64,000 nt of DNA from a phage, in the sequence record PZ386972.1; one strand, given 5' to 3'. The position numbers and the translations under genes are program-made. How positions within the stretch are numbered: the first letter of the stretch is position 1; each line of letters opens with the position of its first letter. The notes beneath the pieces were generated by a model, which worked only from the letters and a program-made list of their open reading frames with translations, searched no databases and was not told the DNA's origin. Positions 9,264 through 30,014 of the stretch are shown one piece after another.

Positions 9264-9405
9264 GCTAAAAAGCTAGACTGGTAATATACAGGGCCTGGGT
9301 ATGAAAATACTCGGGCCTTTTCTATCAGAAAATTTTATTTGCCTAATGACCGATAATAAAGTAGAATATTCCTTAAATCCTGATAACTATAAAAAGGAAA
9401 GCCAA

Positions 9406-11736
9406 ATGAGCCATCGCATTGAAAAAGTAATTAAACGTGACGGTACTGTAGAAGACTTTGCTCCTGAAAAACTCAATGGTTGGGCAGAGTATGGTTGCAA
9501 AACAGTTGATGTAAGTTGGTCCGCCATTACTATGGCTGCTCAAAAAACGCTACCTAAAGGGGTTGTAGATTCCGACACTCTGATGGACGCATTAATTAAA
9601 GCTGCTGAAAGTCTTATCAAAGATAACCCAGCATACGATGTGCCAGCAAAGGAATTACGTCTTGCGCAAATGCGTAAACGCCTTTATGACTCTTTCGAAC
9701 CGCCTTCTCTACGCTTCTTCCATGACCACATGGTTAGCGTAGGTGCATGGGAAGACATGAGTGCATGGATTACCGATGAGCAATTTGAAGCTCTGAATCA
9801 GGTTATCGACCATGATCGTGACCGTCTTTTTACTAGTGGTGGGCTGAAGCAGTTCTTTGATAAGTATTCCCGTCGTAACATAGCCACTGGTGAAATTTAC
9901 GAAACTCCGCAGTTTGCCTACATGGGTATGGCAATGGCGATGCTATCTCAACCTAACTGGACAATTCTAGATGCAATCGACCTCTACAACGCAATGTCAC
10001 TCCACAAAATCAACGTTCCTACGCCGCCACTGGTTGGTCTGCGCTCTAGTGACCGTGGATTTGCTAGTTGCTGCCTCGTGGATTCCACTGACACGTTGGA
10101 TTCAATCGACACCGCCGAGCACATCGTCTTCAAAATGGTCGCAGCCAGAGCGGGAATCGGGTATCATCTTGAAAGCCGATCAATTGCTGATCCGGTGCGA
10201 AATGGGGCATTCCCGCATTCCGGAAAACTGCCATATTATCGACACATTGACCGCTCAGTAAAGGCCAATACTCAGCAAACTCGTGGTGGTTCTGCTACAG
10301 TATCTTATCCATACTTCGACCCTGAAATCATTCAATTGATGCAGGTTAAGCAACAACGTGCTACAGATGAGAATAAAATCGATAAGATGGATTATTCTCT
10401 GAGCTTTAACAACCTTTTGTTAAAACGTTATCTTAAAAACGAAGATATTACGCTAATGTCATACTTCTATGCTCCAGAAGTTCATGAAGCGTTTTATAGT
10501 GATGACGAGGCTAAATTTGAAGAAATCTACGTGGCAGCGGAGAAACGTGTGGCATCTCTTACAAAGATCGACCACGAAGGAAAAACAGTTCCTGCAGCTC
10601 CTAAAGTCTCTGCAAAAGAAATCCTAGATACTTGGCTACGTATCCGAATGGAAACAGGACGTATGTATGCTCACCACATTGGAGAATCTAATCGTCACGG
10701 TAACTTCCTTGATCCGATCCGTATGACAAACCTTTGTGTTGAAATTACTCAGCCTACACGCCCGTTCCATCACATTACAGAGCTGTACAAGACAAAAGAG
10801 CAGCTTGATCAAATGAAGCCGGAGGATATTGGTGAAGTATCTCTGTGTAACTTAGGTGGTGTTGTACTTGGACGCATGGAATCTCTGGCTGAGTGGGAAA
10901 AAACTTGCTACATCCTTCTGAAATTTGTTGACACAATTATTGAAATTCAGGATTATCCGTTCCCAACTATGGAATATACGGCTAAGAAACGTCGTAATGT
11001 TGGTATTGGCCTGATGAACGCAGCGGGTGCAATGGCAGCAGAAGGTCTGGCTTACGAAGGTATTGAAGCCCGTAACTGGATTCACCGTGAGGCTGAAAAA
11101 CTGTCTTACTTCCTGCATAAAGCCTCTGTACGCCTGGCTAAAGAACAGGGTGCATGTGAGTGGTTTGATCGTACTAAACCATCTAAAGGAATTCTAGTAA
11201 TCGACACGTATAAGAAAACTGTTGATGAACTGGTATCCGTAGGTCTAGAAATGGATTGGGAGTCTCTACGTGCAGATATTCTGAAATATGGTATGCGTAA
11301 CTCTGTTCTGACTGCTCAGATGCCGGGAGAAAGTTCTTCTGTTCTGCTAGGAGTTACTAACTCTATTGAACCGCCTCGTAAGATTGTATCTATCAAGGGT
11401 AGTGCAGTGAATAAAGTAATTGCAATTGCTCCGGGTGCAACCGATTGGGAAACGTTAATGAGCTATAAACTGGCTTATGATGTAGATCGTATCGAGTGGA
11501 TCAAATGGGTAGCAACTATGCAAAAATTCTTCAGTCAGTCTATCAGTACGAATATGTACTATGACTACACCAAGTTTGAGAATGAAATCATTCCTGGCCC
11601 AGTAGTAGTTCGTGATTTCATGACTGCTGTTAAGTATGGGTGGAAAACTTTCTACTATGCAAACTTCAATACCGCAAATGGTGGAGGTGCTGGAGAAGAA
11701 GCAGCCGGTTGTGCATCCGGTGGTTGTACTATTTAA
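9406..11736 (+). CDS. nrdA: ribonucleoside-diphosphate reductase alpha subunit (class Ia)
   Basis: ATP-cone N-terminus, NLCVEI active-site region, C-terminal CASGGC; start at ATG 9406 with AAGGAAAG RBS (track start 9301 probably too early). Confidence 0.9.
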   Translation: MSHRIEKVIKRDGTVEDFAPEKLNGWAEYGCKTVDVSWSAITMAAQKTLPKGVVDSDTLMDALIKAAESLIKDNPAYDVPAKELRLAQMRKRLYDSFEPPSLRFFHDHMVSVGAWEDMSAWITDEQFEALNQVIDHDRDRLFTSGGLKQFFDKYSRRNIATGEIYETPQFAYMGMAMAMLSQPNWTILDAIDLYNAMSLHKINVPTPPLVGLRSSDRGFASCCLVDSTDTLDSIDTAEHIVFKMVAARAGIGYHLESRSIADPVRNGAFPHSGKLPYYRHIDRSVKANTQQTRGGSATVSYPYFDPEIIQLMQVKQQRATDENKIDKMDYSLSFNNLLLKRYLKNEDITLMSYFYAPEVHEAFYSDDEAKFEEIYVAAEKRVASLTKIDHEGKTVPAAPKVSAKEILDTWLRIRMETGRMYAHHIGESNRHGNFLDPIRMTNLCVEITQPTRPFHHITELYKTKEQLDQMKPEDIGEVSLCNLGGVVLGRMESLAEWEKTCYILLKFVDTIIEIQDYPFPTMEYTAKKRRNVGIGLMNAAGAMAAEGLAYEGIEARNWIHREAEKLSYFLHKASVRLAKEQGACEWFDRTKPSKGILVIDTYKKTVDELVSVGLEMDWESLRADILKYGMRNSVLTAQMPGESSSVLLGVTNSIEPPRKIVSIKGSAVNKVIAIAPGATDWETLMSYKLAYDVDRIEWIKWVATMQKFFSQSISTNMYYDYTKFENEIIPGPVVVRDFMTAVKYGWKTFYYANFNTANGGGAGEEAAGCASGGCTI

Positions 11737-11745
11737 TAAAAACAA

Positions 11746-11769
11746 GGAGATCTTCGGGTCTCCTTTTTC
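11746..11769 (+). terminator. rho-independent terminator after nrdA
   Basis: GGAGATC-TTCG-GGTCTCC hairpin followed by TTTTTC. Confidence 0.6.
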
Positions 11770-11782: not shown

Positions 11783-11811
11783 TTGCTAATCGCTACCAGA
11801 TTTGCTATAAT
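11783..11811 (+). promoter_or_regulatory. T5-type promoter (TTGCTA-17-TATAAT) immediately upstream of HNH gene
   Basis: Seen in sequence. Confidence 0.5.
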
Positions 11812-11817
11812 ATTTAT

Positions 11818-12315
11818 ATGAAATTAACACAGAGTAGATTAAAAGAGCTAATCTCCTATGATCCTGAAACTGGTGAATTTACCTGGCTTCCAAGAAAAAA
11901 TTTAGCAAAGCATTTATGGAACGCTAAAGCAGGAACCTACGATAAGCTAGGGTATCTTCGTATAAAAGTGGAAGGAGTTCAATACTTAGCTCATCGCCTA
12001 GCCTTCTTGTATATGACTGGAGAAATACCAGAAGGAAAAATTGACCATAAAGATACTAATCCGTCCAATTGTGCCTGGAATAATCTACGTGAAGCCACGA
12101 GTTCCCAAAATTCTATGAACTCATGCGCAAGAGTGGATAACCAGCTTGGAATGAAAAATATTCGTGTAAAAGGCAATTCATTTCAGGTTAGGATAGGCAA
12201 AGACGGTAAATCTTATACAAAAACTTTAAAAACCATAGAAGAAGCTATAGAGTGGAGAGATACCAAACTACTAGAACTTCATGGGGACTTTGCAAACAAC
12301 GGAGAAGCTAAATGA
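11818..12315 (+). CDS. HNH homing endonuclease inserted between nrdA and nrdB
   Basis: 165 aa; HNH-like KDTNPSNCAWNNLREATSSQNSMN region; overlaps nrdB start by 4 nt. Confidence 0.7.
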   Translation: MKLTQSRLKELISYDPETGEFTWLPRKNLAKHLWNAKAGTYDKLGYLRIKVEGVQYLAHRLAFLYMTGEIPEGKIDHKDTNPSNCAWNNLREATSSQNSMNSCARVDNQLGMKNIRVKGNSFQVRIGKDGKSYTKTLKTIEEAIEWRDTKLLELHGDFANNGEAK

Positions 12316-13457
12316 CTACTTTACTTAACTTAGAATGGGATCATACTAACGCTGATCTTTTCCTCGGTGATTCTTTGGGTATCGCAGATTATGTGCGTGT
12401 GGCACATCCCGAACTGGAGCGATTAGCTCTGTTGCAGCGTTCCCAATTCTGGACTGAAACTGAAATTAGTCTTGAAGCTGATAAAAAGCAGTGGGGTAAT
12501 CTCCCGCGTGAAATTCAGGAAATTACACTCCTGAACTTAGCATGGCAAACTCAAACTGATTCCTTTATCAGTCGTGCCCCTGAAGCAGCTATTATGCCGC
12601 TTGTAAGTCGTCCAGAATTGGAAGGTATGCTCAAGCAGTGGAGCTACTTCGAAGATCTGCATAGCCGTGCATATAGTAATATTATTCGTAATGTGCTGAC
12701 TGATCCAGCAGAATTTATTGATTCTGTAACCAAAAACCAGGAAGCATTCGCACGCATCGCTGATTCTGTTGAACTATTCGATGAACTGTATCAGTTAGGT
12801 CAGTATTTCATCGCAGTACGCGATCATCGTGGTGACAATACATATCCAGAAACTGAGTTCCCTGAAGTTAAACGTGAAACTCAGGCTAAACTATTAGACG
12901 CTTACTTTGCGATCTATGGTCTGGAAGCAATGCAGTTTTACGCATCCTTTGCATGTACCTTTGCATTAGCAGAGAACGATATTCTGCAAGGTATTGCTAA
13001 AAATCTGCAATTAATCGCTAAAGATGAAGCTCTGCACACTCAGATGTCCAAAGCAATCATCCAGATTATGTTCCAGCAGTTTGACAAAGATCTGGTGAAT
13101 GAAGCAGTGGCTAAAGCACCAGCACAGCTCCTGAAAACTCTGAAAACTGAAATTGAATGGGGTCATTTCATTTTCAAAGGTCGTAGTCTGATTGGCTTGA
13201 ATGCAGAACTTCTAGAAGAATATCTGTACTTTGTGGGGCGTAATGCATTTATGCACATCGGTGTAGAATGGCCTAGTCATTTACCAGTAATCACCAAGAA
13301 CCCCATTCCGTGGATCATGAACTGGCTGGATACCACTTCTTTACAGCCTGCTCCACAAGAAATCCAGATTGGTGCAGCATATCGTGTAGGTCAGGTAACT
13401 GAGACCTCTACTGATACTCTGAAAGATCTGGGTAATGAATTTGGAGATTTCTTATGA
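12312..13457 (+). CDS. nrdB: ribonucleoside-diphosphate reductase beta subunit
   Basis: 381 aa ferritin-like R2 protein, position directly after nrdA. Confidence 0.85.
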   Translation: MTTLLNLEWDHTNADLFLGDSLGIADYVRVAHPELERLALLQRSQFWTETEISLEADKKQWGNLPREIQEITLLNLAWQTQTDSFISRAPEAAIMPLVSRPELEGMLKQWSYFEDLHSRAYSNIIRNVLTDPAEFIDSVTKNQEAFARIADSVELFDELYQLGQYFIAVRDHRGDNTYPETEFPEVKRETQAKLLDAYFAIYGLEAMQFYASFACTFALAENDILQGIAKNLQLIAKDEALHTQMSKAIIQIMFQQFDKDLVNEAVAKAPAQLLKTLKTEIEWGHFIFKGRSLIGLNAELLEEYLYFVGRNAFMHIGVEWPSHLPVITKNPIPWIMNWLDTTSLQPAPQEIQIGAAYRVGQVTETSTDTLKDLGNEFGDFL

Positions 13458-14865: not shown

Positions 14866-14894
14866 TTGCTTATTTAGTGAAATCTAAATATAAT
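14866..14894 (+). promoter_or_regulatory. T5-type early promoter
   Basis: TTGCTT-17-TATAAT inside conserved module. Confidence 0.6.
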
Positions 14895-22029: not shown

Positions 22030-22101
22030 CGGGGTGTAGTCTAAGGGAGAGGCAGGAGTCTTCTAAATTCCTTTATGCAGGTTCGAATCCTGTCACCTCG
22101 G
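22030..22101 (+). tRNA. tRNA-Arg (anticodon TCT)
   Basis: Acceptor CGGGGTG/CACCTCG, anticodon loop CTTCTAA, T-arm GCAGG-TTCGAAT-CCTGT, encoded CCA. Confidence 0.7.
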
Positions 22102-22138
22102 CCAATTTTATTAACTGTAACTAAAACAAAGGAAATAT

Positions 22139-23086
22139 ATGTTTAATACTAAAAATATGAAAGAACTGACTTCTGAGCAGAAAGTAATTCGTACTATTAA
22201 ACGTTGGGGTATTGGTGCTGTAGTTGGTTTAGCAGGCTTGATTCTAGCCTTTAATTCATATACTATTGTTTCTGATGGTACGGTTAAAACTCAAACATTC
22301 CTGGGTAAAGTAGATCCTAATCCAGTATTGCCGGGTTTCCATCTTGTAAACCCGTTTGCATCTTTCGATACTTTTAGTACAAAAGATATTGCTGTAAAAT
22401 TAGATAAACTTCAGGTTCCTAGTCAGGATAAGTTTAAATCCACTGTTGACCTGACTGTTATGTTGCAATTTGATGGTTCTAAGGCACCGATTAACCGTAT
22501 TAACGCAGGTACTCAGGATCAGGCACTAGACAAGTATGTAACTGAAAAATTACTGTCTACTATTCGTGAGTTTGGTAAGTCTGTACCTAAAGCACAAGAT
22601 TTGTTTGATGCTAAAATTCAGGCTCAATTGCAAACTGCAATTCAACAGGAAGTTGAAGAGTATGCGCGCCCATATGGTTACACAGTTAAGCAGGTATTCC
22701 TTCAGGATATTACCTTGCCGCCAGTAATCATGGAACAGGTACAGAATACCAAAGTTCGTGAAGAGCAAGTTAATGCTGCGAAAGCTGAACTTGCTCGCGT
22801 TGAACAGGAAGCACAGCAAAAAGTTAAACAAGCAGAAGCAGATCGTGAAGCTCGTAACAACCAAGCTATTGCTAATGAACGTGACGCAGATGCTAAACTG
22901 TACGCAGCTAAGAAAGAAGCTGAAGCTAACGCCGCATTGCAACGTACCATTACTCCTGAAATGATTCGTTGGAAACAACTGGAAGTTGAAATGATCCGTG
23001 CTCAGAAGTATCAAGGTGGTGTACCTCAGACTGTGGTAGGTACTGGCTACGATGGTCAAATGATCATGGATATGCGTAATAAATAA
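22139..23086 (+). CDS. SPFH/band-7 (HflC/prohibitin-like) membrane protein
   Basis: N-terminal TM helix, SPFH-like core, C-terminal Ala/Glu-rich coiled coil. Confidence 0.55.
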   Translation: MFNTKNMKELTSEQKVIRTIKRWGIGAVVGLAGLILAFNSYTIVSDGTVKTQTFLGKVDPNPVLPGFHLVNPFASFDTFSTKDIAVKLDKLQVPSQDKFKSTVDLTVMLQFDGSKAPINRINAGTQDQALDKYVTEKLLSTIREFGKSVPKAQDLFDAKIQAQLQTAIQQEVEEYARPYGYTVKQVFLQDITLPPVIMEQVQNTKVREEQVNAAKAELARVEQEAQQKVKQAEADREARNNQAIANERDADAKLYAAKKEAEANAALQRTITPEMIRWKQLEVEMIRAQKYQGGVPQTVVGTGYDGQMIMDMRNK

Positions 23087-23110
23087 TACCCGCATGTAAC
23101 ATCTGAAGTA

Positions 23111-23146
23111 AGCCCTGCGTTTCCTGGAGAGCGCAGGGCTTTTCTA
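23111..23146 (+). terminator. rho-independent terminator
   Basis: AGCCCTGCG...CGCAGGGCT hairpin followed by TTTTC. Confidence 0.6.
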
Positions 23147-23182
23147 TATAATGTAATTATAAAACTAACTAGGAGATTAAAC

Positions 23183-23701
23183 ATGGGTGTTGATGAATTA
23201 ACACAGCATCTTCTATCTAGAGGATTTGATGCGGATAAATATCATTGCTGGTTAAGTCCGGAAGGATGGCTAACAGTCCCGTTGTATGATTTCTCTGGGA
23301 TGTTGAGGGGCTATCAAACTTATAATCCTTCTGCTCCAAAAGGTCATGGTAAGTGTCCCTTTGAAGCTAAATATTTTACCTATTCTACTACCCAGTGTGT
23401 ATGGGGATTAGAAACTCTCAATGGAGATGAAAAAGTAGTATTGATCGCTGAATCTGTATTTAAGGCAGTTGCGTTACATAATGCTGGTTATCCAGCCCTA
23501 GCAATGTTGGGTTCTTCTCCAGGAAAAGCGTTATTAAAGCAACTGAAATTATTACCTTTTAAATTGGTAGCTGTCGGGGATAACGATCCTGCGGGTGAAA
23601 AATTTGCTAGAAAATTAAACGGCTTTGTTTCTCCTGTAGATGTGGATGAGATGTCTACAGAAAACTTGAAAAATTTTCTTGCTATGAAGCTAAATTTCTA
23701 A
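23183..23701 (+). CDS. Toprim-domain protein
   Basis: Conserved acidic residues LIAESVFKA and VGDNDPAGEKFA resemble the Toprim E and DxD motifs. Confidence 0.4.
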   Translation: MGVDELTQHLLSRGFDADKYHCWLSPEGWLTVPLYDFSGMLRGYQTYNPSAPKGHGKCPFEAKYFTYSTTQCVWGLETLNGDEKVVLIAESVFKAVALHNAGYPALAMLGSSPGKALLKQLKLLPFKLVAVGDNDPAGEKFARKLNGFVSPVDVDEMSTENLKNFLAMKLNF

Positions 23702-23707
23702 TATAAT
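23679..23707 (+). promoter_or_regulatory. T5-type promoter overlapping the 3' end of the upstream CDS
   Basis: TTGCTA-17-TATAAT ending about 15 nt before tRNA-Ser. Confidence 0.5.
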
Positions 23708-23722
23708 ATATCTTATAAATTC

Positions 23723-23808
23723 GGAAGAATAGCATAACGGTATTGCAGCAGATTGCTAATCTGTCGGTTTGAAATATAGCCTTGTGGGTTCGATTCCCAC
23801 TTCTTCCA
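23723..23808 (+). tRNA. tRNA-Ser (anticodon GCT), class II
   Basis: Acceptor GGAAGAA/TTCTTCC, anticodon loop TTGCTAA, long variable arm, T-arm GTGGG-TTCGATT-CCCAC, CCA encoded. Confidence 0.8.
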
Positions 23809-23817
23809 CCAAATTCT

Positions 23818-23892
23818 GGTTCTCAAGCTCATATGGTATGAGCACCCGGCTCATAACCGGAAGGTACGTAGGTTCGAATCCTCGGGGAGCCA
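23818..23892 (+). tRNA. tRNA with CAT anticodon (Met or Ile2)
   Basis: Acceptor GGTTCTC/GGGAGCC with wobbles, D-arm GCTC...GAGC, anticodon loop CTCATAA, TTCGAAT T-loop (imperfect T stem), CCA encoded. Confidence 0.6.
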
Positions 23893-23914
23893 CCAAATTA
23901 AATAAGGACAACTA

Positions 23915-24103
23915 ATGGAATTATTCATAGTTTCTGTTAAATTTGCACAAGATAGAGAACGTTCGGATGAGTTTAAACAAGGGTACAGACTAGTAAAGGC
24001 TACATCTGAACTCCATGCTATGGACAAAGTAGTAGACTATATGTATAATGTAGAAGATGTTTACTACGTCAATGCTTTAGAAGCCTCAAAAGTAATTAAC
24101 TAG
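23915..24103 (+). CDS. hypothetical protein
   Basis: ORF track. Confidence 0.4.
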   Translation: MELFIVSVKFAQDRERSDEFKQGYRLVKATSELHAMDKVVDYMYNVEDVYYVNALEASKVIN

Positions 24104-24112
24104 GGAGACTAT

Positions 24113-24289
24113 ATGTCTAAGTTTCAAGAACTCAAGCAAGAGCTAGAAGAGTGTGCCTGCCCTGAGTGTAGGGGAATTGGTGAAAGTTCTGATGCAGAAG
24201 CAGGAGATACTTTTTGCAATATCTGGGTTTGCCCAAATTGCAGTGGTACAGGTATTAATCCTAACTGCGGTATTTCCCCTAGATATTGA
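24113..24289 (+). CDS. small Cys-rich (zinc-ribbon-like) protein, 58 aa
   Basis: ATG 24113; CxxC...CxxC pairs (CPECRG, CPNCSG); below track cutoff. Confidence 0.35.
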   Translation: MSKFQELKQELEECACPECRGIGESSDAEAGDTFCNIWVCPNCSGTGINPNCGISPRY

Positions 24290-24400
24290 ACGAGGGTAAC
24301 ACCTGTGAAACTAAAAGATTATTATATTGGTTGGTTTGTGGGACTAGTAGTAGGATTTTCACTAGGCTATAATATGTATCAACTAATAAACTGATTACAT

Positions 24401-24474
24401 GGGGGTGTAATCGAATTGGCATAGGTACTGGACTTAAAATTCAGGTTTTGTGGGTTCGAATCCCACCACCCCTA
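24401..24474 (+). tRNA. tRNA with TAA anticodon (Leu by anticodon) but class I architecture
   Basis: Acceptor GGGGGTG/CACCCCT, anticodon stem CTGGA/TTCAG, loop CTTAAAA, 5-nt variable loop, T-arm GTGGG-TTCGAAT-CCCAC, CCA encoded; weak D stem. Confidence 0.5.
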
Positions 24475-24652
24475 CCAACTTAAGGAAATAAGATGTATAG
24501 ACATCCACCTCCGCCAACACGTCGTTCTAGAGAAGTTATCCTCATGGAATTGACGAAAAACTTCAAGGCAACTCTTGAAGATAGAGATCTAGGCACGGAT
24601 GAAGACATTGATTTTATTTGTAGACTATTAAAGATGAAACTGGAGAAACAAC

Positions 24653-24859
24653 ATGGCTAATCCTGAAATTACCGCACAACGTTTCATGCTTAAAGGCATG
24701 ATTGCTGAGGCAGGTATGACCCAAGAGGTTGCAGACTTTCATAAGCAATTTCTTGATATTATAACTCTAGCTAAAGAGACAGGAGAAAGAGAACACGGAG
24801 CAGCAATTATGGCTATATCTCTTATTAGCCTAGACTTAGCTGAAGAATCTGGAGTTTAG
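24653..24859 (+). CDS. hypothetical protein
   Basis: ORF track. Confidence 0.4.
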   Translation: MANPEITAQRFMLKGMIAEAGMTQEVADFHKQFLDIITLAKETGEREHGAAIMAISLISLDLAEESGV

Positions 24860-24889
24860 CTCCTCCAAACAGAATTTTTAAAAATGTAC

Positions 24890-24919
24890 TTGCCTTTTGC
24901 TTTAAATTTCTGGTATAAT
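24890..24919 (+). promoter_or_regulatory. T5-type early promoter
   Basis: TTGCCT-18-TATAAT. Confidence 0.55.
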
Positions 24920-24949
24920 AGTTATATAAATTGATGAAGGAGTTAACGA

Positions 24950-25225
24950 ATGCAAAATCGTGTTATAGCAACTGGTATTGAAAGTGCAATCTGTAAATCC
25001 TGGGAAGGCTGGGAAGGTGAGATTGAATGGCTTTATTTCTACGATGTAGAACTTCTGCCGGAAGTTAAAGCTAAATGTGTTGAAGCTGGCATGGCTCCAG
25101 ATGCAAAAGCTGATATTGATATTTCAATGTCTGAACTTAAAGGTCGTGTAATTACTGTTAGTGATGAGGGCGAAGAAGTTTTCGAACTTCCATTCTCCTT
25201 AACTGTCGCTCCTAAGTTCGACTAA
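24950..25225 (+). CDS. hypothetical acidic protein
   Basis: ORF track. Confidence 0.4.
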   Translation: MQNRVIATGIESAICKSWEGWEGEIEWLYFYDVELLPEVKAKCVEAGMAPDAKADIDISMSELKGRVITVSDEGEEVFELPFSLTVAPKFD

Positions 25226-25261
25226 CTAATACAGCACTGAGCAAGTTCTTTAAAATTTGAC

Positions 25262-25290
25262 TTGCTCAGTGCCATAAAACTTGATATAAT
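25262..25290 (+). promoter_or_regulatory. T5-type promoter; its -35 lies in the 3' arm of a long terminator-like inverted repeat
   Basis: CAGCACTGAGCAAG...CTTGCTCAGTGC inverted repeat at about 25232-25273, then TTGCTC-17-TATAAT. Confidence 0.55.
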
Positions 25291-25353
25291 AGTTATCTAA
25301 TTTGGAAACATATCTAAAAGTGTTTAAACTAGTATTTGAATACTTTTAAATAT

Positions 25354-25438
25354 GGGCGTTTATTCCGTAGATGGTAGCGGAGGGGATTGTAAATCCCTGG
25401 TCATTGCGACTCGAGTGGTTCGACTCCATTAACGCCCA
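25354..25438 (+). tRNA. tRNA-Tyr (anticodon GTA), class II
   Basis: Acceptor GGGCGTT/AACGCCC, anticodon loop TTGTAAA, long variable arm, T-arm GTGG-TTCGACT-CCAT, CCA encoded. Confidence 0.8.
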
Positions 25439-25459
25439 CCAAATTTAAAGGTAAAATAT

Positions 25460-25942
25460 ATGTACACTGATAGAATTGTTCAAGAAGCTGCAAACAGAGG
25501 TCTTATTGATCTGGGATCACCAGTTGATATAACTAAAGAGCTAATAACAGAGAGCCTTACGTTTGGCACAGCTAACTTTGGCCGAGATAGTAACCGTCGG
25601 TATAGCTTGAAACTATCAGCATTATCTTTTATTAAGTACAATAAGAGTATTGGAGAAAAATCAAGTTGTGGTTTTATCTACGCGATAACTAATCCAGCTT
25701 GGACTGATTATGTAAAAATTGGCATGTCTTCTGACCCAAAAACAAGATTAGCCAATTACCAGACATATTCTCCACTACGTGACTATAAGTTAATACATTG
25801 GTCATTTTGGTTTAATGCTAGAGAAGCAGAGAAAATGCTTCATAATAGCTTTCCAAAAAGAATTAATGAATGGGTAGTTTTGGACAGAAGTGTAGATGAA
25901 ACACTTGCTGATTTTAATAAACTATCTAATAAACAATTTTAA
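25460..25942 (+). CDS. T5orf172/GIY-YIG-like domain protein (homing-endonuclease-like) embedded in tRNA cluster
   Basis: GFIYAITNPAWTDYVKIGMSSDPKTRLANYQT matches the GIY-YIG-related T5orf172 signature. Confidence 0.5.
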   Translation: MYTDRIVQEAANRGLIDLGSPVDITKELITESLTFGTANFGRDSNRRYSLKLSALSFIKYNKSIGEKSSCGFIYAITNPAWTDYVKIGMSSDPKTRLANYQTYSPLRDYKLIHWSFWFNAREAEKMLHNSFPKRINEWVVLDRSVDETLADFNKLSNKQF

Positions 25943-25943
25943 T

Positions 25944-26015
25944 GCACCTATCATCTATCGGTTAGGACATCAGGTTTTCAACCTGAGAAGCTTGGTTCGA
26001 TTCCGTGTGGGTGTA
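25944..26015 (+). tRNA. tRNA-Glu (anticodon TTC)
   Basis: Acceptor GCACCTA/TGGGTGT, anticodon stem TCAGG/CCTGA, loop TTTTCAA, TTCGATT T-loop, CCA encoded. Confidence 0.7.
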
Positions 26016-26026
26016 CCAAATTCTGC

Positions 26027-26100
26027 ATTCCTAGAGTGTTACTGGACAGCATGTCGGTCTCCAAAACCGTACGGTCTAGGTTCGAGTCCTAGTAGGTTTG
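26027..26100 (+). tRNA. tRNA-Trp (anticodon CCA)
   Basis: Anticodon loop CTCCAAA, T-arm CTAGG-TTCGAGT-CCTAG, CCA encoded; acceptor stem has two U-U mismatches. Confidence 0.55.
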
Positions 26101-26109
26101 CCAAAATTT

Positions 26110-26181
26110 GCACCTTTAGCTGAGATGGATTAGCGCTTGCCTGAAGAGCTTGAGAGGTTCGTTCGATACGAACAGGGTGCA
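26110..26181 (+). tRNA. tRNA-Phe (anticodon GAA), tentative
   Basis: Acceptor GCACCTT/AGGGTGC, loop CTGAAGA, T-arm GTTCG-TTCGATA-CGAAC, CCA encoded; anticodon stem weak. Confidence 0.5.
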
Positions 26182-26201
26182 CCAAATTGAGGGAGCTGCT
26201 G

Positions 26202-26474
26202 ATGCATCCTGAAAACTTCTTTATTTACTGCGCGGATAAGTTGCTGAAACGTAGAATTAACAAAGTCTATCATTATCGTGCTAGTCAACAGCCTTATGTA
26301 TACGCTTTTGACGGTGATCACATCCCATTAGAACAACTATCTTGTGATTACATGATATTGAAGAACTTTGACGAGACAAAGATCTCAAGCGTTCATAATC
26401 GACAGAATCCCTTAACGTGGAAATATAAGAAGAAAAAGAAAGGCATCAAATTCTTAAAAAATGTAGTTGCTTAG
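26202..26474 (+). CDS. hypothetical protein
   Basis: ORF track (TTG 26187); ATG 26202 with GAGGGAG RBS preferred. Confidence 0.4.
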   Translation: MHPENFFIYCADKLLKRRINKVYHYRASQQPYVYAFDGDHIPLEQLSCDYMILKNFDETKISSVHNRQNPLTWKYKKKKKGIKFLKNVVA

Positions 26475-26495
26475 TTTCCAAAAGTTCTGTATAAT
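26467..26495 (+). promoter_or_regulatory. T5-type early promoter
   Basis: TTGCTT-17-TATAAT. Confidence 0.6.
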
Positions 26496-26523
26496 AATTA
26501 CATAAATTGAACTGGAGAAGCAA

Positions 26524-26811
26524 ATGAAACGATTAGTTAGATTTAAGTGTTGTGGTTCTGAACATATTTTCACACATCTTCGTGAATTTAAAATGTGTGA
26601 TTGTGGTAAATCAGGCTATGACTCAGGAGATGGGTTCTACACCCGTACTCTAGGGAACTTCAATGATCTAGAATTTGAAGATCTCGAAAAACAAGAAAAA
26701 GAATTATGTATCTGTTATGAATGTGGTGATCAAGATTACTACTCTAAAACAGGTAAGAAAGTGTGTAGCAATTGTGGTTCCGATCATGTAGCTACACATT
26801 ATGAAAGATAA
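26524..26811 (+). CDS. zinc-ribbon protein with four CxxC pairs
   Basis: CCGSEH, CDCG, CICYECG, CSNCG motifs. Confidence 0.45.
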   Translation: MKRLVRFKCCGSEHIFTHLREFKMCDCGKSGYDSGDGFYTRTLGNFNDLEFEDLEKQEKELCICYECGDQDYYSKTGKKVCSNCGSDHVATHYER

Positions 26812-26816
26812 TAAAC

Positions 26817-26889
26817 CGACCGTTGGCTGAATGGCTTAGGCGAAGGATTGCAAATCCTTTTTATGTGAGTTCAAATCTCATGCGGTCGT
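26817..26889 (+). tRNA. tRNA-Cys (anticodon GCA)
   Basis: Acceptor CGACCGT/GCGGTCG, anticodon stem AAGGA/TCCTT, loop TTGCAAA, T-arm GTGAG-TTCAAAT-CTCAT, CCA encoded. Confidence 0.75.
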
Positions 26890-26892
26890 CCA

Positions 26893-27044
26893 ATTTGCTG
26901 AAAGAATTGTTAAATCAATTCAGGCACGCGTAGGAACACTGTCTCCGTAATTGAAAGATGAGACACGGTTTGGAGAGGTATGCCGCTACACGCTACGGTG
27001 CTAACTCCGTCTAGGTGAAAATCCTAGTCAGCAATATAAATTTA
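26893..27044 (+). ncRNA. about 150 nt structured spacer between tRNA-Cys and tRNA-Asn (candidate small RNA)
   Basis: Hairpins such as GTCTC...GAGAC; no ORF. Confidence 0.25.
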
Positions 27045-27124
27045 GGGTCGTTAGCCAAGCGGTTTGGCGGTGGACTGTTAATCCATGTCGAAAGACAACG
27101 TAGGTTCGAATCCTACACGGCCCG
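27045..27124 (+). tRNA. tRNA with GTT anticodon (Asn) and unusually long 13-nt variable arm
   Basis: Acceptor GGGTCGT/ACGGCCC, D-arm GCCA...TGGC, anticodon stem GTGGA/TCCAT, loop CTGTTAA, variable GTCGAAAGACAAC, TTCGAAT T-loop, CCA encoded. Confidence 0.65.
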
Positions 27125-27229
27125 CCAAATTCTGTGTAGAGTTAAGTAAACCGGTAGCCAACCAGCTATCATTGCTGACATCGAATTCAGCCACAGATAC
27201 CATTTTCATTAATAACTGAGGAAACAAGC

Positions 27230-27415
27230 ATGTCCAAGAATGTAATTGCACAGTTAGAAGTTCATCGTGATAACACAGCTAATAACATTAAGTGCCGACA
27301 AAAAGATATTGAAGCTCAAAAGGCTGATCTTTTAATGAGTATTCGAGAGCTTAATGTACGAAAAGAGTTTCTTAAAGAACTTAATGCAGCTATTGAAAAA
27401 CTCAAAGCTGAGTAA
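27230..27415 (+). CDS. small coiled-coil protein
   Basis: ORF track. Confidence 0.35.
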   Translation: MSKNVIAQLEVHRDNTANNIKCRQKDIEAQKADLLMSIRELNVRKEFLKELNAAIEKLKAE

Positions 27416-27424
27416 ATGAATTAT

Positions 27425-27498
27425 GCGACCGGGGCTGGCTTGGTAATGGTACTCCCCTGTCACGGGAGGGAATGTGGGTTCGAATCCCATCGGTCGCG
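27425..27498 (+). tRNA. tRNA-Asp (anticodon GTC)
   Basis: Acceptor GCGACCG/CGGTCGC, anticodon stem CTCCC/GGGAG, loop CTGTCAC, T-arm GTGGG-TTCGAAT-CCCAT, CCA encoded. Confidence 0.8.
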
Positions 27499-27678
27499 CC
27501 AAATAAGGTAGGTTAGCTATGGAACGTAGGGAGTTTACTCCGGAAGAGATAGAGCAGATAAAAGAATCTGCTATGAAAAATGCTAGAATATCTCTGTCAC
27601 TGGAAGGTATCATTATAAGTGATGTAAACTTTGAAAAAATCAAAGCCATAGCTGATGAACTGGAAAAAGTAATTTAAT

Positions 27679-27751
27679 ACATCCATAGCTCAATGGTTAG
27701 AGCTACCGCCTCTTAAGCGGAGGGTTCTAGGTTCAAGTCCTAGTGGGTGTA
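27679..27751 (+). tRNA. tRNA-Lys (anticodon CTT)
   Basis: Acceptor ACATCCA/TGGGTGT, D-arm GCTC...GAGC, loop CTCTTAA, T-arm CTAGG-TTCAAGT-CCTAG, CCA encoded. Confidence 0.65.
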
Positions 27752-27780
27752 CCAAACTAAACTAGCACGAGAAATATGCT

Positions 27781-28128
27781 ATGATTAATGCTAAAGAAGA
27801 GTTGTTACTTGCCCTAAAGAATACTAAGTCTGAAGTTAAGTGTATTAAGATAGAATTCGGTTATTATGGGAACAAAGAAGTTTGGATATTACCCGTAGGT
27901 TATACAGAAAAAGATATTGAAGATTTTCTAAATAATCTAGACTTCAAATATGATTCTGGTTTCGGTGGACAATTGCTTTACGGTAACGTATGGTTTACTG
28001 ATGGAACTTGGTTAGAGCGTGGTGAATATGATGGTTCTGAATGGTGGGAGTATAAGACTACACCAGCAATCCCAGAAGAATGCCGAACAATTAATGGTGA
28101 AGTAGATCGTACTTTACTATTAAATTAA
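27781..28128 (+). CDS. hypothetical protein
   Basis: ORF track. Confidence 0.45.
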   Translation: MINAKEELLLALKNTKSEVKCIKIEFGYYGNKEVWILPVGYTEKDIEDFLNNLDFKYDSGFGGQLLYGNVWFTDGTWLERGEYDGSEWWEYKTTPAIPEECRTINGEVDRTLLLN

Positions 28129-28250
28129 CAAAATTTCAGTGCAGAACACGGAGCTAGCAATTCGGAAGTGCTGACTCATGATAGGCTGCCTATGTACTTG
28201 CGAAGCGGTCGTGTCCAAGACTCGGACTCTTGCACTGAAAACAATCAAAC

Positions 28251-28368
28251 ATTCTAGCGTGGTTGATGGGGAAACCAGCTTGGCTAGGGCAGAAGCTCGT
28301 TCGATTCGAGTGAAAGAATGGTTCTCGTAAGTCCGCACAAGTGATAACAGGTTCGAGTCCTGTCTAGA
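28251..28368 (+). ncRNA. 118-nt tRNA-like RNA: perfect 7-bp acceptor-like stem and canonical T-arm, no encoded CCA
   Basis: 5' ATTCTAG pairs with 3' CTAGAAT; T-arm ACAGG-TTCGAGT-CCTGT; internal second TTCGATT hairpin. Confidence 0.35.
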
Positions 28369-28383
28369 ATGACACTATAAAGT

Positions 28384-28494
28384 TTACTTATTATGTAGGT
28401 TCCGATAGATCGGCGGGTCTATTCTGGCATTTAAGAGAGGTCTCGCAAACTTCTTTGTCAGCCGTGGGGTTGATAGCCTCCAGGTGGCCTACAC
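28384..28494 (+). ncRNA. about 110-nt structured RNA closed by terminal helix
   Basis: 5' TGTAGGT pairs with 3' GCCTACA; internal hairpins; no ORF. Confidence 0.3.
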
Positions 28495-28520
28495 AATAAG
28501 TAAATTTATTAAAAATTCAT

Positions 28521-28549
28521 TTGCTATTCTGCTTAATTATCTGTATAAT
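28521..28549 (+). promoter_or_regulatory. T5-type early promoter
   Basis: TTGCTA-17-TATAAT. Confidence 0.6.
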
Positions 28550-28579
28550 ATATTTTATAAAGTGAGTTAACAAAATTAA

Positions 28580-28652
28580 CAGTGCGTAGCGCAGTTGGTA
28601 GCGTGGGAGCCTTGGATGCTTCGGGTCGCAGGTTCGAGTCCTGCCGCACTGA
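28580..28652 (+). tRNA. tRNA-Pro (anticodon TGG)
   Basis: Acceptor CAGTGCG/CGCACTG, D-arm GCGC...GCGT, loop CTTGGAT, T-arm GCAGG-TTCGAGT-CCTGC, CCA encoded. Confidence 0.75.
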
Positions 28653-28661
28653 CCAAACAAT

Positions 28662-28736
28662 TGCGGGTTAGATCTCTGGTAGAGATCGCTAGTCTCATAA
28701 GCTAGAAAGAGGTAGGTTCGATTCCTGCACCCGCTT
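28662..28736 (+). tRNA. tRNA with CAT anticodon (Met or Ile2)
   Basis: D-arm GATC...GATC, anticodon stem CTAGT/GCTAG, loop CTCATAA, TTCGATT T-loop, CCA encoded; 1-72 U-U mismatch. Confidence 0.6.
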
Positions 28737-28759
28737 CCATTTTAATAGAGGATTTCGAA

Positions 28760-28927
28760 ATGAAAGTATTTCGATTAGTAGTAAGTGACAAACGTTTAGG
28801 TAAGAATACCTCAAAATCCTTACTTGCTCATTATGGAAAAGATGAGAAAGAAGTAATGGCGGAGTTTGGGATTAATCACCCTTACTTGAAAGTTCACTCT
28901 ATTAAAGAAGTATATAATGGTTACTAA
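28760..28927 (+). CDS. small hypothetical protein (55 aa)
   Basis: ATG with GAGGA RBS between two tRNAs; below track cutoff. Confidence 0.3.
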   Translation: MKVFRLVVSDKRLGKNTSKSLLAHYGKDEKEVMAEFGINHPYLKVHSIKEVYNGY

Positions 28928-28928
28928 T

Positions 28929-29004
28929 AGATCGCTAGCTCAATAGGTTTAGTAGCATCCGACTTTTAATCGGAAGGTTCTGGGTTCGAGTCCCAGGCGA
29001 TCTA
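28929..29004 (+). tRNA. tRNA-Lys (anticodon TTT)
   Basis: Acceptor AGATCGC/GCGATCT, anticodon stem TCCGA/TCGGA, loop CTTTTAA, T-arm CTGGG-TTCGAGT-CCCAG, CCA encoded. Confidence 0.8.
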
Positions 29005-29026
29005 CCAATTTCAAGAAAAACGCAGT

Positions 29027-29054
29027 TGCTTGATGCTTAATTTCTTGTTATAAT
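29027..29054 (+). promoter_or_regulatory. T5-type early promoter
   Basis: TTGCTT-16-TATAAT. Confidence 0.55.
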
Positions 29055-29104
29055 ATTTATATAAATTGATGAGGATTTCTCCTCATCATAGTTCACTAAG
29101 GTAT

Positions 29105-29268
29105 TAGCTCGACCTAGGACTGGCTGCCAAAAAGCACGATCCCTACGATTCGGGAGAAGTTCTAGATTAGTCCACTAGATTCAGCGGCAACTGAATAGTG
29201 TATCGGGTTTGCGAGATGACGCGGTTCCTTCCGCTCGAAGCGAAGGTGCTGTAGTTACGCCGAGCTAA
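29105..29268 (+). ncRNA. about 165-nt structured RNA closed by TAGCTCG/CGAGCTA helix
   Basis: Long-range complementary 7-mers plus internal hairpins; no ORF. Confidence 0.3.
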
Positions 29269-29292
29269 TAGCCTTAGTAAACTAAAGAATTT

Positions 29293-29368
29293 GGGGAATG
29301 GGTCTGCATGGAGTGGACACCTCGCTTGCACCGAGGACATCAGAACGGTTCGATTCCGTTATTCTCCA
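29293..29368 (+). tRNA. tRNA-Ala (anticodon TGC)
   Basis: Acceptor GGGGAAT/ATTCTCC with G3-U70 wobble, anticodon stem CCTCG/CGAGG, loop CTTGCAC, T-arm AACGG-TTCGATT-CCGTT, CCA encoded. Confidence 0.75.
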
Positions 29369-29376
29369 CCAAATAC

Positions 29377-29450
29377 GCGTGATTGATGGAATTGGCATAC
29401 ATACCGTCCTTAGAAGTCGGGTTTTGAGGGTTCGAATCCCTTGTCACGCA
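29377..29450 (+). tRNA. tRNA with TAG anticodon (Leu by anticodon) but class I architecture
   Basis: Acceptor GCGTGAT/GTCACGC, loop CTTAGAA, 5-nt variable loop, T-arm GAGGG-TTCGAAT-CCCTT, discriminator A, CCA encoded; weak D stem. Confidence 0.5.
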
Positions 29451-29453
29451 CCA

Positions 29454-29565
29454 AATTTGATGGTCAGAGTAAATTAAACCTACTATCTCGGTTGAGCTGT
29501 TTTAATGGGTTCGAATCCCAGCGAGGCGTAACTGCCTGGCGTGATAGAGGCATCATCTTATTATT
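29454..29565 (+). ncRNA. about 110-nt segment containing an orphan T-arm-like hairpin (tRNA-like fragment or small RNA)
   Basis: TGGG-TTCGAAT-CCCA hairpin with no matching acceptor stem or CCA; AGGCGTAACTGCCT hairpin. Confidence 0.25.
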
Positions 29566-29653
29566 GGAAGAGCAAATCGAATTGGCGACGAAAACCGCTT
29601 GGAAAGTGGCTGACTGGTAAAACGGCTTGAGAGTTCAAATCTCTCCTCTTCCG
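29566..29653 (+). tRNA. tRNA-Ser (anticodon GGA), class II
   Basis: Acceptor GGAAGAG/CTCTTCC, loop TTGGAAA, long variable arm, T-arm GAGAG-TTCAAAT-CTCTC, CCA encoded. Confidence 0.7.
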
Positions 29654-29668
29654 CCAAACAATTTATAT

Positions 29669-29760
29669 GGTAGGTCAATCCAATGGCTGGCGCTGGACTC
29701 CGACTTGAAATCGGTTGATCGTAGTGATACGGTGTAAGGGTTCGATCCCCTTACCTACCT
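29669..29760 (+). tRNA. tRNA-Ser (anticodon TGA), class II
   Basis: Acceptor GGTAGGT/ACCTACC, loop CTTGAAA, long variable arm, T-arm AAGGG-TTCGATC-CCCTT, CCA encoded. Confidence 0.7.
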
Positions 29761-29764
29761 CCAA

Positions 29765-29910
29765 GTCTTGAAGTATGCCGGAATCGGTAGACGGGGCTGC
29801 CTAAAAGGTTTATAGGGAACATCCACTCCCTACAACATACCTCATAAAGCGGCTGAGATAAATGGTCTATCTCGTGAAGGTTCAAGTCCTTCTGCTTCTT
29901 GATACATCTA
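29765..29910 (+). ncRNA. about 145-nt structured segment with D-arm-like and T-arm-like hairpins but no complete cloverleaf
   Basis: GAGATA-AATGGTC-TATCTC and GAAGG-TTCAAGT-CCTTC hairpins; no CCA. Confidence 0.25.
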
Positions 29911-30014
29911 TGGCTCAAAGTGTAACGGTGCTATTTGATGCTCTTAGTAAGACTTTCCCGACATGCGTTCGGGAGTAAGCTGCTAAGGCTAGAATAGAAG
30001 AGTTTCTGAGAGCC

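What the first reader, a model, noticed from the sequence alone, without database searches (positions are those of the whole stretch)
11783..12315. HNH homing endonuclease wedged between nrdA and nrdB with its own promoter
A 165-aa HNH gene interrupts the otherwise contiguous RNR operon, preceded by a terminator and a promoter and overlapping the nrdB start by 4 nt. This is the classic footprint of a free-standing homing endonuclease that has invaded a conserved gene junction.
Basis: partly seen in the sequence, partly recalled or inferred. Interest (0 to 1): 0.4.

Follow-up and report, generated by a model that had tools for sequence, protein, structure and literature searches.

The report
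Homing endonuclease gene riding nrdB's promoter
This is an ordinary, already annotated selfish homing-endonuclease gene lying between the two ribonucleotide-reductase genes of a T5-like phage; the one fresh detail is that it uses the reductase gene's own promoter and probably starts translation at the very first base of its messenger RNA.

Summary
ORF 11818-12315 (165 aa) is an intact HNH_3 / I-HmuI-like endonuclease with a C-terminal AP2-like DNA-binding domain. It sits between nrdA and nrdB of a T5-like phage and overlaps the nrdB start by 4 nt (ATGA).

Comparative evidence supports homing:
- Most relatives lack the gene at exactly this point.
- The gene plus the first ~185 nt of nrdB form one cassette. 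It is 97-98% identical across phage genera whose backbones are only 87-90% identical.
- The window's own backbone is 97% identical to insert-free phages, but only 82% identical to them inside that nrdB block.
- dN/dS is 0.04-0.18, so the protein is under purifying selection.

The claim "its own promoter" is wrong. The terminator and the TTGCTA-N17-TATAAT promoter are identical in insert-free genomes. They are the resident nrdA terminator and nrdB promoter. The insert replaced nrdB's 31-nt leader, and its 3' end supplies a new GGAG for nrdB.

The ATG lies exactly 6 nt after the -10 box and has no Shine-Dalgarno sequence. This spacing is conserved in four diverged lineages, which suggests a leaderless mRNA (inferred, not shown).

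The same gene is annotated in GenBank (AKFV33 orf096, Spc35) and discussed in a 2012 paper. Low novelty.

The parts
9301..11736 (+). nrdA, the class Ia ribonucleotide reductase large subunit. The true start is possibly 9406.
   Evidence: Pfam Ribonuc_red_lgC E 2e-119. An upstream hairpin, a promoter-like site at 9339-9367 and an AGGAA before the ATG at 9406 suggest the shorter form.
11744..11765 (+). Resident nrdA intrinsic terminator. It is not part of the insert.
   Evidence: 9-bp stem, UUCG loop, T-run, dG -12.5. Identical in the insert-free mar004NP2.
11783..11811 (+). Resident nrdB promoter of T5 early type: TTGCTA-17-TATAAT with TG before the -10. The endonuclease gene now lies directly behind it.
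   Evidence: The same 29-mer (0-3 mismatches) is present in all empty and occupied loci. The motif class occurs 21 times against 0.11 expected.
11814..12496 (+). The mobile cassette: the endonuclease gene plus the co-converted first ~185 nt of nrdB. It replaces the native 31-nt nrdB leader.
   Evidence: The left boundary falls right after TATAATAT. There are 27 diagnostic SNPs at nrdB nt 15-185, none in the 1300 nt upstream and none at nt 186-1500. Diversity and divergence profile; identity table.
11818..12315 (+). HNH homing endonuclease gene, 165 aa. The ATG lies 6 nt after the -10 hexamer and has no Shine-Dalgarno sequence (predicted leaderless).
   Evidence: AF2 model pLDDT 94.2. dN/dS 0.04-0.18. 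The 6-nt spacing is conserved in 10 close alleles and in Sugarland, L043 and L044.
11983..12117 (+). HNH_3 (beta-beta-alpha-metal) catalytic core, residues 56-100. D76 and H77 are encoded at 12043-12048, N89 at 12082-12084 and N98 at 12109-12111.
12154..12291 (+). C-terminal AP2-like DNA-binding domain, residues ~113-158: three strands plus a helix.
12301..12304 (+). GGAG inside the endonuclease gene's last codons, 7 nt before the nrdB ATG. It substitutes as the Shine-Dalgarno sequence for nrdB.
   Evidence: The equivalent GGAG is kept at the 3' end of all five allele types and in Sugarland, L043 and L044.
12312..13457 (+). nrdB, the class Ia RNR small subunit. Its first ~185 nt belong to the cassette.
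   Evidence: Pfam Ribonuc_red_sm E 5e-36..

Best explanation
ORF 11818-12315 is a free-standing homing endonuclease gene (HEG) of the I-HmuI-like HNH_3 family. It has a C-terminal AP2-type DNA-binding domain and sits in the nrdA-nrdB spacer of a T5-like phage (Tequintavirus/Epseptimavirus group).

It has no expression signals of its own. It lies between the -10 box of the pre-existing nrdB promoter and the nrdB start codon, where it replaced nrdB's 31-nt leader.

Inferred expression. The nrdB promoter now transcribes HEG and nrdB as one unit. Transcription most likely begins at the A of the HEG's ATG, giving a leaderless and probably weakly translated endonuclease message. nrdB is then translated from a GGAG embedded in the HEG's last codons, and/or by coupling through the ATGA overlap.

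Inferred mobility. In a mixed infection the enzyme would nick or cut the HEG-less allele, either in the nrdB leader or within the first ~190 nt of nrdB. Recombinational repair from the HEG-carrying genome would then copy the HEG together with the first ~185 nt of the donor's nrdB. The donor's block carries about 27 mostly synonymous differences, which plausibly make it resistant to cleavage.

Shown: gene identity, fold, catalytic residues, purifying selection, presence/absence polymorphism, cassette boundaries, and the fact that the promoter and terminator are resident features.

Inferred: cleavage activity, target position, leaderless start, current mobility.
For: Identity of the protein
- Pfam HNH_3 at 58.7 bits and PHROG 99 at 6.6e-60.
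- D76, H77 and N98 are invariant in 60 homologs.

Resident signals
- The terminator and promoter are identical in the empty mar004NP2.
- The promoter is present in all 33 loci where the region could be read.

Polymorphism
- Among 27 IMG/VR loci, 19 have the 31-nt leader at this position, 2 carry this allele, 5 the T5 allele and 1 the HZ allele.
- In GenBank phages, 447 records hold the region. 29 carry this allele, 75 the T5 type, 34 the HZ type and 3 the phiLLS type.

Cassette and horizontal spread
- There are 27 diagnostic SNPs, all at nrdB nt 15-185, and none in 1300 nt upstream or at nt 186-1500.
- Within-type diversity in the block is 0.02, against divergence to empties of 0.15-0.21. In the flanks both values are about 0.07.
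- The window is 97% identical to HEG-less phages in the backbone but 82% in the block. It is 97-98% identical in the block to Epseptimaviruses whose backbones are 87-90% identical.

Functional constraint
- dN/dS is 0.04-0.18.

Leaderless start
- The ATG is exactly 6 nt after TATAAT in 10 close alleles, in Sugarland, in L043 and in L044, even though the 6-nt spacer and the promoters differ.
- Most of the other 20 T5-type promoters in the window carry an ATAAATT-like box 6 nt after the -10, and wherever a downstream ORF could be assigned it follows a 12-64 nt leader, usually with a purine-rich SD. The HEG's ATGAAATTA aligns with that box.
- The sister alleles at the same site instead have AAGGAG plus a TTG or GTG start.

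Functional analogue
- T4 MobE nicks T2 nrdB at nt 122-126, with a recombination point within the first 189 nt (PMC2790892).
Against: - No biochemical or genetic test of this protein, or of T5 hegH, was found.
- The target site cannot be located by comparison alone. The fixed 185-nt block could mark the cleavage position, or it could simply be a diverged segment that resists crossovers.
- The transcription start is inferred from promoter geometry, from conserved spacing and from textbook knowledge of T5 P_N25. No start-site data for T5-like phages were found.
- Read-through of the nrdA terminator could also provide transcripts.
- Counts of GenBank records include RefSeq/GenBank duplicates.
Confidence: 0.85

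Rival explanations
1. A self-contained HEG module brought its own terminator and promoter into a previously contiguous nrdA-nrdB operon.
For: A terminator and a strong promoter do lie immediately upstream of the ORF. The AKFV33 GenBank record lists them next to the gene.
Against: Both elements are identical in genomes without the insert. The promoter is conserved in all loci, whether empty or occupied by any of five different HEG alleles. The heterologous DNA begins only after TATAATAT.
Confidence: 0.03
2. The HEG is translated from an internal start codon on longer transcripts rather than from a leaderless mRNA. Those transcripts would come from read-through of the nrdA terminator, or from a start a few bases upstream. 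Initiation would be SD-independent and helped by the A/U-rich upstream sequence.
For: The terminator is modest (dG -12.5). T4 mobE is expressed purely by read-through from nrdA. The upstream sequence is A/T-rich.
Against: The exact 6-nt distance from -10 to ATG is conserved in four diverged lineages with different spacers and promoters. This clade uses ATG, while SD-led sister alleles use TTG or GTG. Leaderless initiation requires AUG (established knowledge). The ATG aligns with the conserved box downstream of the -10.
Confidence: 0.3
3. The ORF is an untranslated relic with no ribosome-binding site. It persists only by hitch-hiking with nrdB.
For: There is no Shine-Dalgarno sequence.
Against: All 10 close alleles and the variants at 71-78% identity are intact and full length. 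dN/dS is 0.04-0.18 with dS up to 0.53. The catalytic residues are conserved.
Confidence: 0.04
4. The enzyme is domesticated. It would serve the phage, for example by producing the site-specific nicks of T5 virion DNA or by excluding competing phages, and would not act as a selfish mobile element.
For: T5-family HNH enzymes such as F-TflI, II and IV are site-specific endonucleases (cited). T5 DNA carries specific nicks. The gene is under purifying selection.
Against: Only 29 of 447 related records carry this allele, and most relatives have nothing at this site. It is therefore dispensable. The cassette phylogeny is discordant with the backbone, as expected for a selfish element. Competitor exclusion is not really distinct from homing.
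Confidence: 0.07

Closest known systems
AKFV33 orf096, Spc35 SPC35_0087, and the HNH endonucleases of phages Th1, fuchur and falkor (same allele)
   Same: The genes are 95-98% identical in nucleotides and occupy the same position. The AKFV33 GenBank record annotates the same terminator and promoter. The gene was described as a putative homing endonuclease between nrdA and nrdB and likened to mobE.
   Different: Nothing substantive; the window carries another copy of this allele. Published descriptions do not note that the promoter is nrdB's own, that there is no leader or Shine-Dalgarno sequence, or that 185 nt of nrdB travel with the gene.
T5 hegH (T5.095, 'putative H-N-H-endonuclease P-TflVIII'; annotated 'F-TflVIII' in DT57C)
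   Same: It occupies the same insertion point, between the nrdB -10 box and the nrdB ATG. It belongs to the same protein family (HNH_3), shares the post-promoter ATCT..AT motif, and has its own co-converted nrdB block.
   Different: It is only about 43% identical in protein and 174 aa long. It has an AAGGAG Shine-Dalgarno sequence with a TTG start about 25 nt after the -10. Its nrdB block ends near nt 127. It is a separate lineage competing for the same site.
Phage T4 MobE
   Same: It is a free-standing HNH HEG between nrdA and nrdB with no promoter of its own. It nicks the 5' region of HEG-less nrdB at nt 122-126, with recombination points within the first 189 nt. This closely parallels the ~185-nt block seen here.
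   Different: There is no detectable sequence similarity (blastp). MobE is a different HNH subfamily without an AP2 domain. It is expressed by read-through from nrdA and is regulated by an internal terminator, rather than sitting behind the nrdB promoter. The shared niche is convergent.
I-HmuI (PDB 1u3e), an intron-encoded HNH nicking endonuclease of Bacillus phage SPO1
   Same: It is the best structural and sequence match for residues ~1-105. It shares the DH...N...N catalytic motif and the N-terminal beta-sheet DNA-binding region.
   Different: I-HmuI is intron-encoded and has a C-terminal helix-turn-helix. This protein is free-standing and has an AP2-like C-terminal domain instead.
HNH-AP2 endonucleases (bacterial and phage proteins that combine Pfam HNH_3 with the AP2 domain)
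   Same: The domain order is the same. Over 30 of the 118 homologs found carry PF00847 plus PF13392. The C-terminal fold matches plant AP2/ERF domains.
   Different: The query's own AP2 region falls below Pfam detection, with no hit at E<=10. The assignment rests on the fold and on homologs.

Membership tests
HNH_3 / I-HmuI-like His-Me finger endonucleases | Profile match above the curated threshold | tested here: met
   PF13392 at 58.7 bits against a cutoff of 24.8, covering the full 46-position profile.
HNH_3 / I-HmuI-like His-Me finger endonucleases | Catalytic Asp-His general base and metal-binding or structural Asn residues | tested here: met
   D76, H77 and N98 are invariant and N89 is nearly invariant in 60 homologs. 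They align with the I-HmuI DHKD...N...N motif.
HNH_3 / I-HmuI-like His-Me finger endonucleases | Beta-beta-alpha-metal fold | tested here: met
HNH_3 / I-HmuI-like His-Me finger endonucleases | Mg/Mn-dependent DNA nicking or cleavage | not testable with these tools
   This needs purified protein.
Free-standing homing endonuclease gene | Presence/absence polymorphism at a precise site among close relatives, outside any intron or intein | tested here: met
   The boundaries are identical in all 10 carriers. 19 of 27 sampled loci have the bare 31-nt leader at this position.
Free-standing homing endonuclease gene | Co-conversion of flanking markers, with cassette history discordant with the backbone | tested here: met
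   27 diagnostic SNPs are confined to nrdB nt 15-185. Diversity and divergence profile; identity table.
Free-standing homing endonuclease gene | Site-specific cleavage of the HEG-less allele and immunity of the HEG-carrying allele | not testable with these tools
   Only candidate regions can be named: the nrdB leader and start, and the SNP clusters at nt 15-24 and nt 111-138.
Free-standing homing endonuclease gene | Preferential inheritance in mixed infection that depends on the nuclease | not testable with these tools
   This needs phage crosses.
HNH-AP2 endonucleases | AP2-type DNA-binding domain C-terminal to the HNH domain | tested here: met
T4 MobE family | Sequence homology to MobE | tested here: not met
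   blastp found no hit at E<=10. It works like MobE but is not a member of that family.
Leaderless bacterial mRNAs | Transcription start coincides with the A of an AUG start codon, with no 5' UTR or Shine-Dalgarno sequence | tested here: inconclusive
   The geometry fits: -10, then 6 nt, then ATG, conserved in four lineages, an ATG start (not TTG or GTG) and no Shine-Dalgarno sequence. No start-site data exist.

The most novel reading that the evidence does not exclude
This HEG lineage has fused its start codon to the +1 position of the captured nrdB promoter and lost the Shine-Dalgarno sequence that its sister alleles keep. The endonuclease would then be made only from a leaderless AUG. That would be a built-in throttle on a potentially toxic nuclease, while the HEG's 3' codons rebuild the ribosome-binding site of the essential downstream nrdB. 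It would be a previously undescribed way for a selfish nuclease gene to integrate into host-gene expression.
Probability: 0.5. Interest if true: 0.4.

Novelty: already known. Interest (0 to 1): 0.22.

Why it matters
As a gene, it adds nothing new. HNH homing endonucleases between nrdA and nrdB are annotated in T5 and many relatives and are well studied in T4 (mobE).

The comparative picture is a tidy natural example of several points:
- The nrdA-nrdB spacer of T5-like phages is a contested landing pad. It holds at least five endonuclease lineages at two sub-positions.
- The mobile unit includes about 185 nt of the essential neighbouring gene.
- The element depends on, and rewires, the expression signals of that neighbour.

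If the leaderless start is confirmed, it would give a simple, testable case of how a selfish nuclease keeps its own dosage low without harming the host gene downstream.

The enzyme's target is probably a conserved sequence at the start of nrdB. It could also be of minor interest as a site-specific nickase.

Tried and rejected
- A single-sequence AlphaFold run gave pLDDT 46 and was unusable. It was replaced by a run with a 60-sequence alignment.
- tblastn of the protein against the window found no paralog.
- I tested whether the cassette's nrdB block came from a Sugarland-like phage. It did not: 62% identity, the same as for empty alleles.
- I tested MobE for homology and found none.
- Literature searches found no biochemical work on P-TflVIII/hegH or on this allele, and no transcription-start maps for T5-like phages.
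- TATAAT-N6-ATG as a bare pattern is not itself rare in the window: 3 found against 1.6 expected. The leaderless argument therefore rests on cross-lineage conservation and on comparison with the window's other promoters, not on pattern frequency.
- The cleavage site could not be pinned down from polymorphism alone.

Full report
**1. What is there**

The window is from a T5-like phage. The local gene order is phoH, nrdA, nrdB, frd, thy. The window holds 22 tRNA genes and 21 T5-type promoters. The closest records are Salmonella and E. coli Tequintavirus/Epseptimavirus phages at about 97% identity.

ORF 11818-12315 (+) encodes 165 aa. nrdA ends at 11736. A hairpin terminator lies at 11744-11765 (dG -12.5 kcal/mol). 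A promoter, TTGCTA-17-TATAAT, lies at 11783-11811. The promoter belongs to a class that is hugely over-represented in the window, 21 found against 0.11 expected. It is therefore not a chance consensus match.

**2. The protein**

- It matches Pfam HNH_3 at 58.7 bits against a cutoff of 24.8 and PHROG 99 'HNH endonuclease' at 6.6e-60.
- The only meaningful PDB sequence hit is I-HmuI (1u3e, E 0.001). The alignment runs across the DHKD...N...N motif.
- In a 60-sequence family alignment, D76, H77 and N98 are invariant and N89 is nearly so.
- An AlphaFold model built on that alignment has mean pLDDT 94.2. The single-sequence model was useless.
- Many homologs carry Pfam AP2 next to HNH_3.

The protein is therefore an I-HmuI-like HNH nuclease core followed by an AP2-type DNA-binding domain. 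Its characterised relatives (I-HmuI, the T5 F-Tfl enzymes, T4 MobE) are strand-specific nickases. The I-HmuI and F-Tfl part rests on established knowledge; MobE is from PMC2790892. Nicking is the likeliest chemistry here, but it is inferred.

**3. The promoter and terminator are not the gene's own**

I aligned the junction with an insert-free relative, mar004NP2. The nrdA stop, the terminator and the whole promoter through TATAATAT are identical. In the empty genome the -10 box is followed by a 31-nt leader, ATTCCTGAAATAGTGAGAAAGAGGAAAATCA, and then the nrdB ATG. In the window that leader is replaced by 500 nt that begin 'ATTTAT ATG...'.

The same 29-nt promoter (0-3 mismatches) is present in every related locus examined, whether empty or occupied. 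So the terminator is nrdA's and the promoter is nrdB's. The endonuclease gene sits between nrdB and its promoter. 'Otherwise contiguous operon' is also inexact, because nrdA and nrdB are separate units even without the insert.

**4. Evidence for homing**

(a) Presence/absence polymorphism. Among 27 IMG/VR T5-like loci:
- 19 have the bare 31-nt leader;
- 2 carry this allele;
- 5 carry the T5 hegH allele;
- 1 carries a third allele.

In GenBank phages the region is found in 447 records:
- 29 carry this allele at 90% identity or more;
- 75 carry the T5 type;
- 34 carry the HZ_ZJUN2 type;
- 3 carry the phiLLS type.

These counts include RefSeq duplicates.

(b) Discordant history. I compared 10 carriers of this allele with 20 genomes empty at this position.
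- Sites nearly fixed in carriers and rare in empties number 27. All lie at nrdB nt 15-185.
- There are none in the 1300 nt upstream and none at nrdB nt 186-1500.
- In nrdB nt 1-200, carriers differ from each other by 0.02 but from empties by 0.15-0.21 (minimum 0.11).
- Elsewhere, within-group and between-group values are equal at about 0.07, and some carrier/empty pairs are identical.
- The window's backbone is 97% identical to HEG-less Tequintaviruses, yet only 82% identical to them in nrdB nt 1-185.
- In that block the window is 97-98% identical to Epseptimavirus carriers whose backbones are 87-90% identical.

The mobile unit is therefore about 11814-12496: the gene plus the first ~185 nt of nrdB. 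It is bounded sharply on the left by the -10 box. Only two amino-acid changes accompany the block, N8E and P62G.

(c) The gene is alive. dN/dS is 0.04-0.18, with dS up to 0.53.

The homing interpretation is supported as far as sequence comparison can take it.

**5. A contested site**

Four alleles occupy exactly this point: the window type, the T5 hegH type, the phiLLS type and the HZ_ZJUN2 type. All match HNH_3, and they are 35-67% identical in protein to the window's gene. A fifth allele of 160 aa sits between the nrdA stop and the promoter, where it replaces the terminator. It is found in L008, L027, L031 and L032, and in 43 GenBank records including FFH_1.

The window-type lineage also occurs between nrdA and nrdB in three more distant settings:
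- Klebsiella Sugarlandvirus, 74% nucleotide identity;
- a metagenomic T5-like contig, 71% amino-acid identity;
- a short Sugarland-like scaffold, 78% amino-acid identity.

**6. Expression: the one non-routine feature**

The ATG lies 6 nt after TATAAT and has no Shine-Dalgarno sequence. The same spacing holds in several places, although the spacer sequences and the promoters differ:
- all 10 close alleles, with spacers ATTTAT, ATCTAT or ATCTAC;
- Sugarland, with ATTCAC;
- L044, with ATTCTC;
- L043, with ATCTGT.

Most of the other 20 T5-type promoters in the window carry an ATAAATT-like box beginning 6 nt after the -10. Wherever a downstream ORF could be assigned (17 of 20), it follows a leader of 12-64 nt, usually with a purine-rich ribosome-binding site. 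The endonuclease gene's ATGAAATTA lines up with that box. For T5 P_N25, whose sequence is confirmed, the A of this box is the mapped transcription start (established knowledge, not tested here).

The three sister alleles at the same site keep an AAGGAG/GGGAG sequence and start with TTG or GTG. Only the SD-less clade uses ATG, which is what leaderless initiation requires.

I therefore infer, at about 50-60% confidence, that the message is leaderless. The main alternative is SD-independent initiation on read-through transcripts.

At the other end, the last codons (..AAC GGA GAA..) place a GGAG 7 nt before the nrdB ATG. This motif is retained at the 3' end of every allele. It replaces the lost native ribosome-binding site of nrdB.

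**7. Comparison with known systems**

The same allele is annotated in GenBank. AKFV33 orf096 is listed as 'putative homing endonuclease', with the terminator and promoter recorded beside it. Spc35, Th1, fuchur and others carry it too. Niu et al. 2012 discussed it as a counterpart of T5 P-TflVIII, located between nrdA and nrdB, 42% identical to the T5 protein, and comparable to T4 mobE (PMC3326045).

T4 MobE is the best functional analogue. It is a promoterless HNH gene between nrdA and nrdB. It nicks T2 nrdB at nt 122-126, and recombination points fall within the first 189 nt (PMC2790892). MobE shows no sequence similarity to this protein, so the shared niche is convergent.

The MobE nick position corresponds to about nt 119-123 of T5-type nrdB. 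That lies inside a dense cluster of cassette SNPs at nt 111-138, and the T5-type cassette ends at nt 127. This is suggestive for target location but not decisive.

**8. Verdict**

This is a real and correctly recognised homing endonuclease gene, and it is already annotated and published. Novelty is low. The leaderless and ribosome-binding-site-donation anatomy and the defined 185-nt co-converted block are modest additions that need wet-lab confirmation.

Noticed in passing
L008:1452-1934 (also L027, L031, L032; GenBank FFH_1, KJ190157): A fifth HNH endonuclease allele of 160 aa occupies a second sub-position in the same spacer. It lies between the nrdA stop and the nrdB promoter and replaces the nrdA terminator. 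It is present in 43 GenBank records.
   Followed up: partly
L031:2001-2190 (nrdB 5' end): This is a mosaic locus. There is no insert between the promoter and nrdB. Even so, nrdB nt 1-127 carry the T5-type cassette SNPs and nt ~160-185 carry the window-type SNPs, and the upstream-position HNH is also present. It looks like the product of successive conversion events or of HEG loss.
   Followed up: no
Insert-free loci L002, L008-L020, L025, L027, L029-L032: the 31 nt after TATAAT: The native nrdB leader, ATTCCTGAAATAGTGAGAAAGAGGAAAATCA, is 100% identical in all 20 insert-free genomes. The first 14 nt of nrdB are identical in 19 of them (the mosaic L031 differs at nt 6). The flanking coding DNA differs by 5-10%. 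This could reflect regulatory constraint, or it could be (part of) the endonuclease target.
   Followed up: no
window, 21 sites, e.g. 14866-14894, 31620-31648, 41440-41468: TTGCT-N18-TATAAT promoters occur 21 times against 0.11 expected. Most are followed, 6 nt after the -10, by an ATAAATT-like box and then a purine-rich ribosome-binding site. This is the T5 early-promoter architecture.
   Followed up: partly
window 9301-9410: The long nrdA ORF start at 9301 lies inside a terminator-like hairpin. A promoter-like site (TTGCCT-17-TAGAAT, 9339-9367) and an AGGAA precede a second ATG at 9406. GenBank records disagree on the length, giving 2436 or 2331 nt. The shorter form looks more likely.
   Followed up: partly
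T5-type loci L021-L024, L028: nrdB nt 110-127: The T5 hegH cassette's block of nrdB differences ends abruptly at nt 127 and includes a Q41A change. This position is homologous to the mapped MobE nicking site in T2 nrdB (nt 122-126). Unrelated endonucleases may target the same conserved stretch of nrdB.
   Followed up: partly
GenBank MG065692 'Campylobacter phage C13' (hit H75): A record labelled as a Campylobacter phage carries the phiLLS-type T5-like endonuclease allele at the same identity as phiLLS. It is probably a mislabelled or contaminant T5-like coliphage genome.
   Followed up: no
window 22030-32428: This is a cluster of 22 tRNA genes, typical of T5-like phages. In T5 this region houses the characterised F-Tfl HNH endonucleases. 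tblastn found no paralog of the nrd-spacer endonuclease there.
   Followed up: partly
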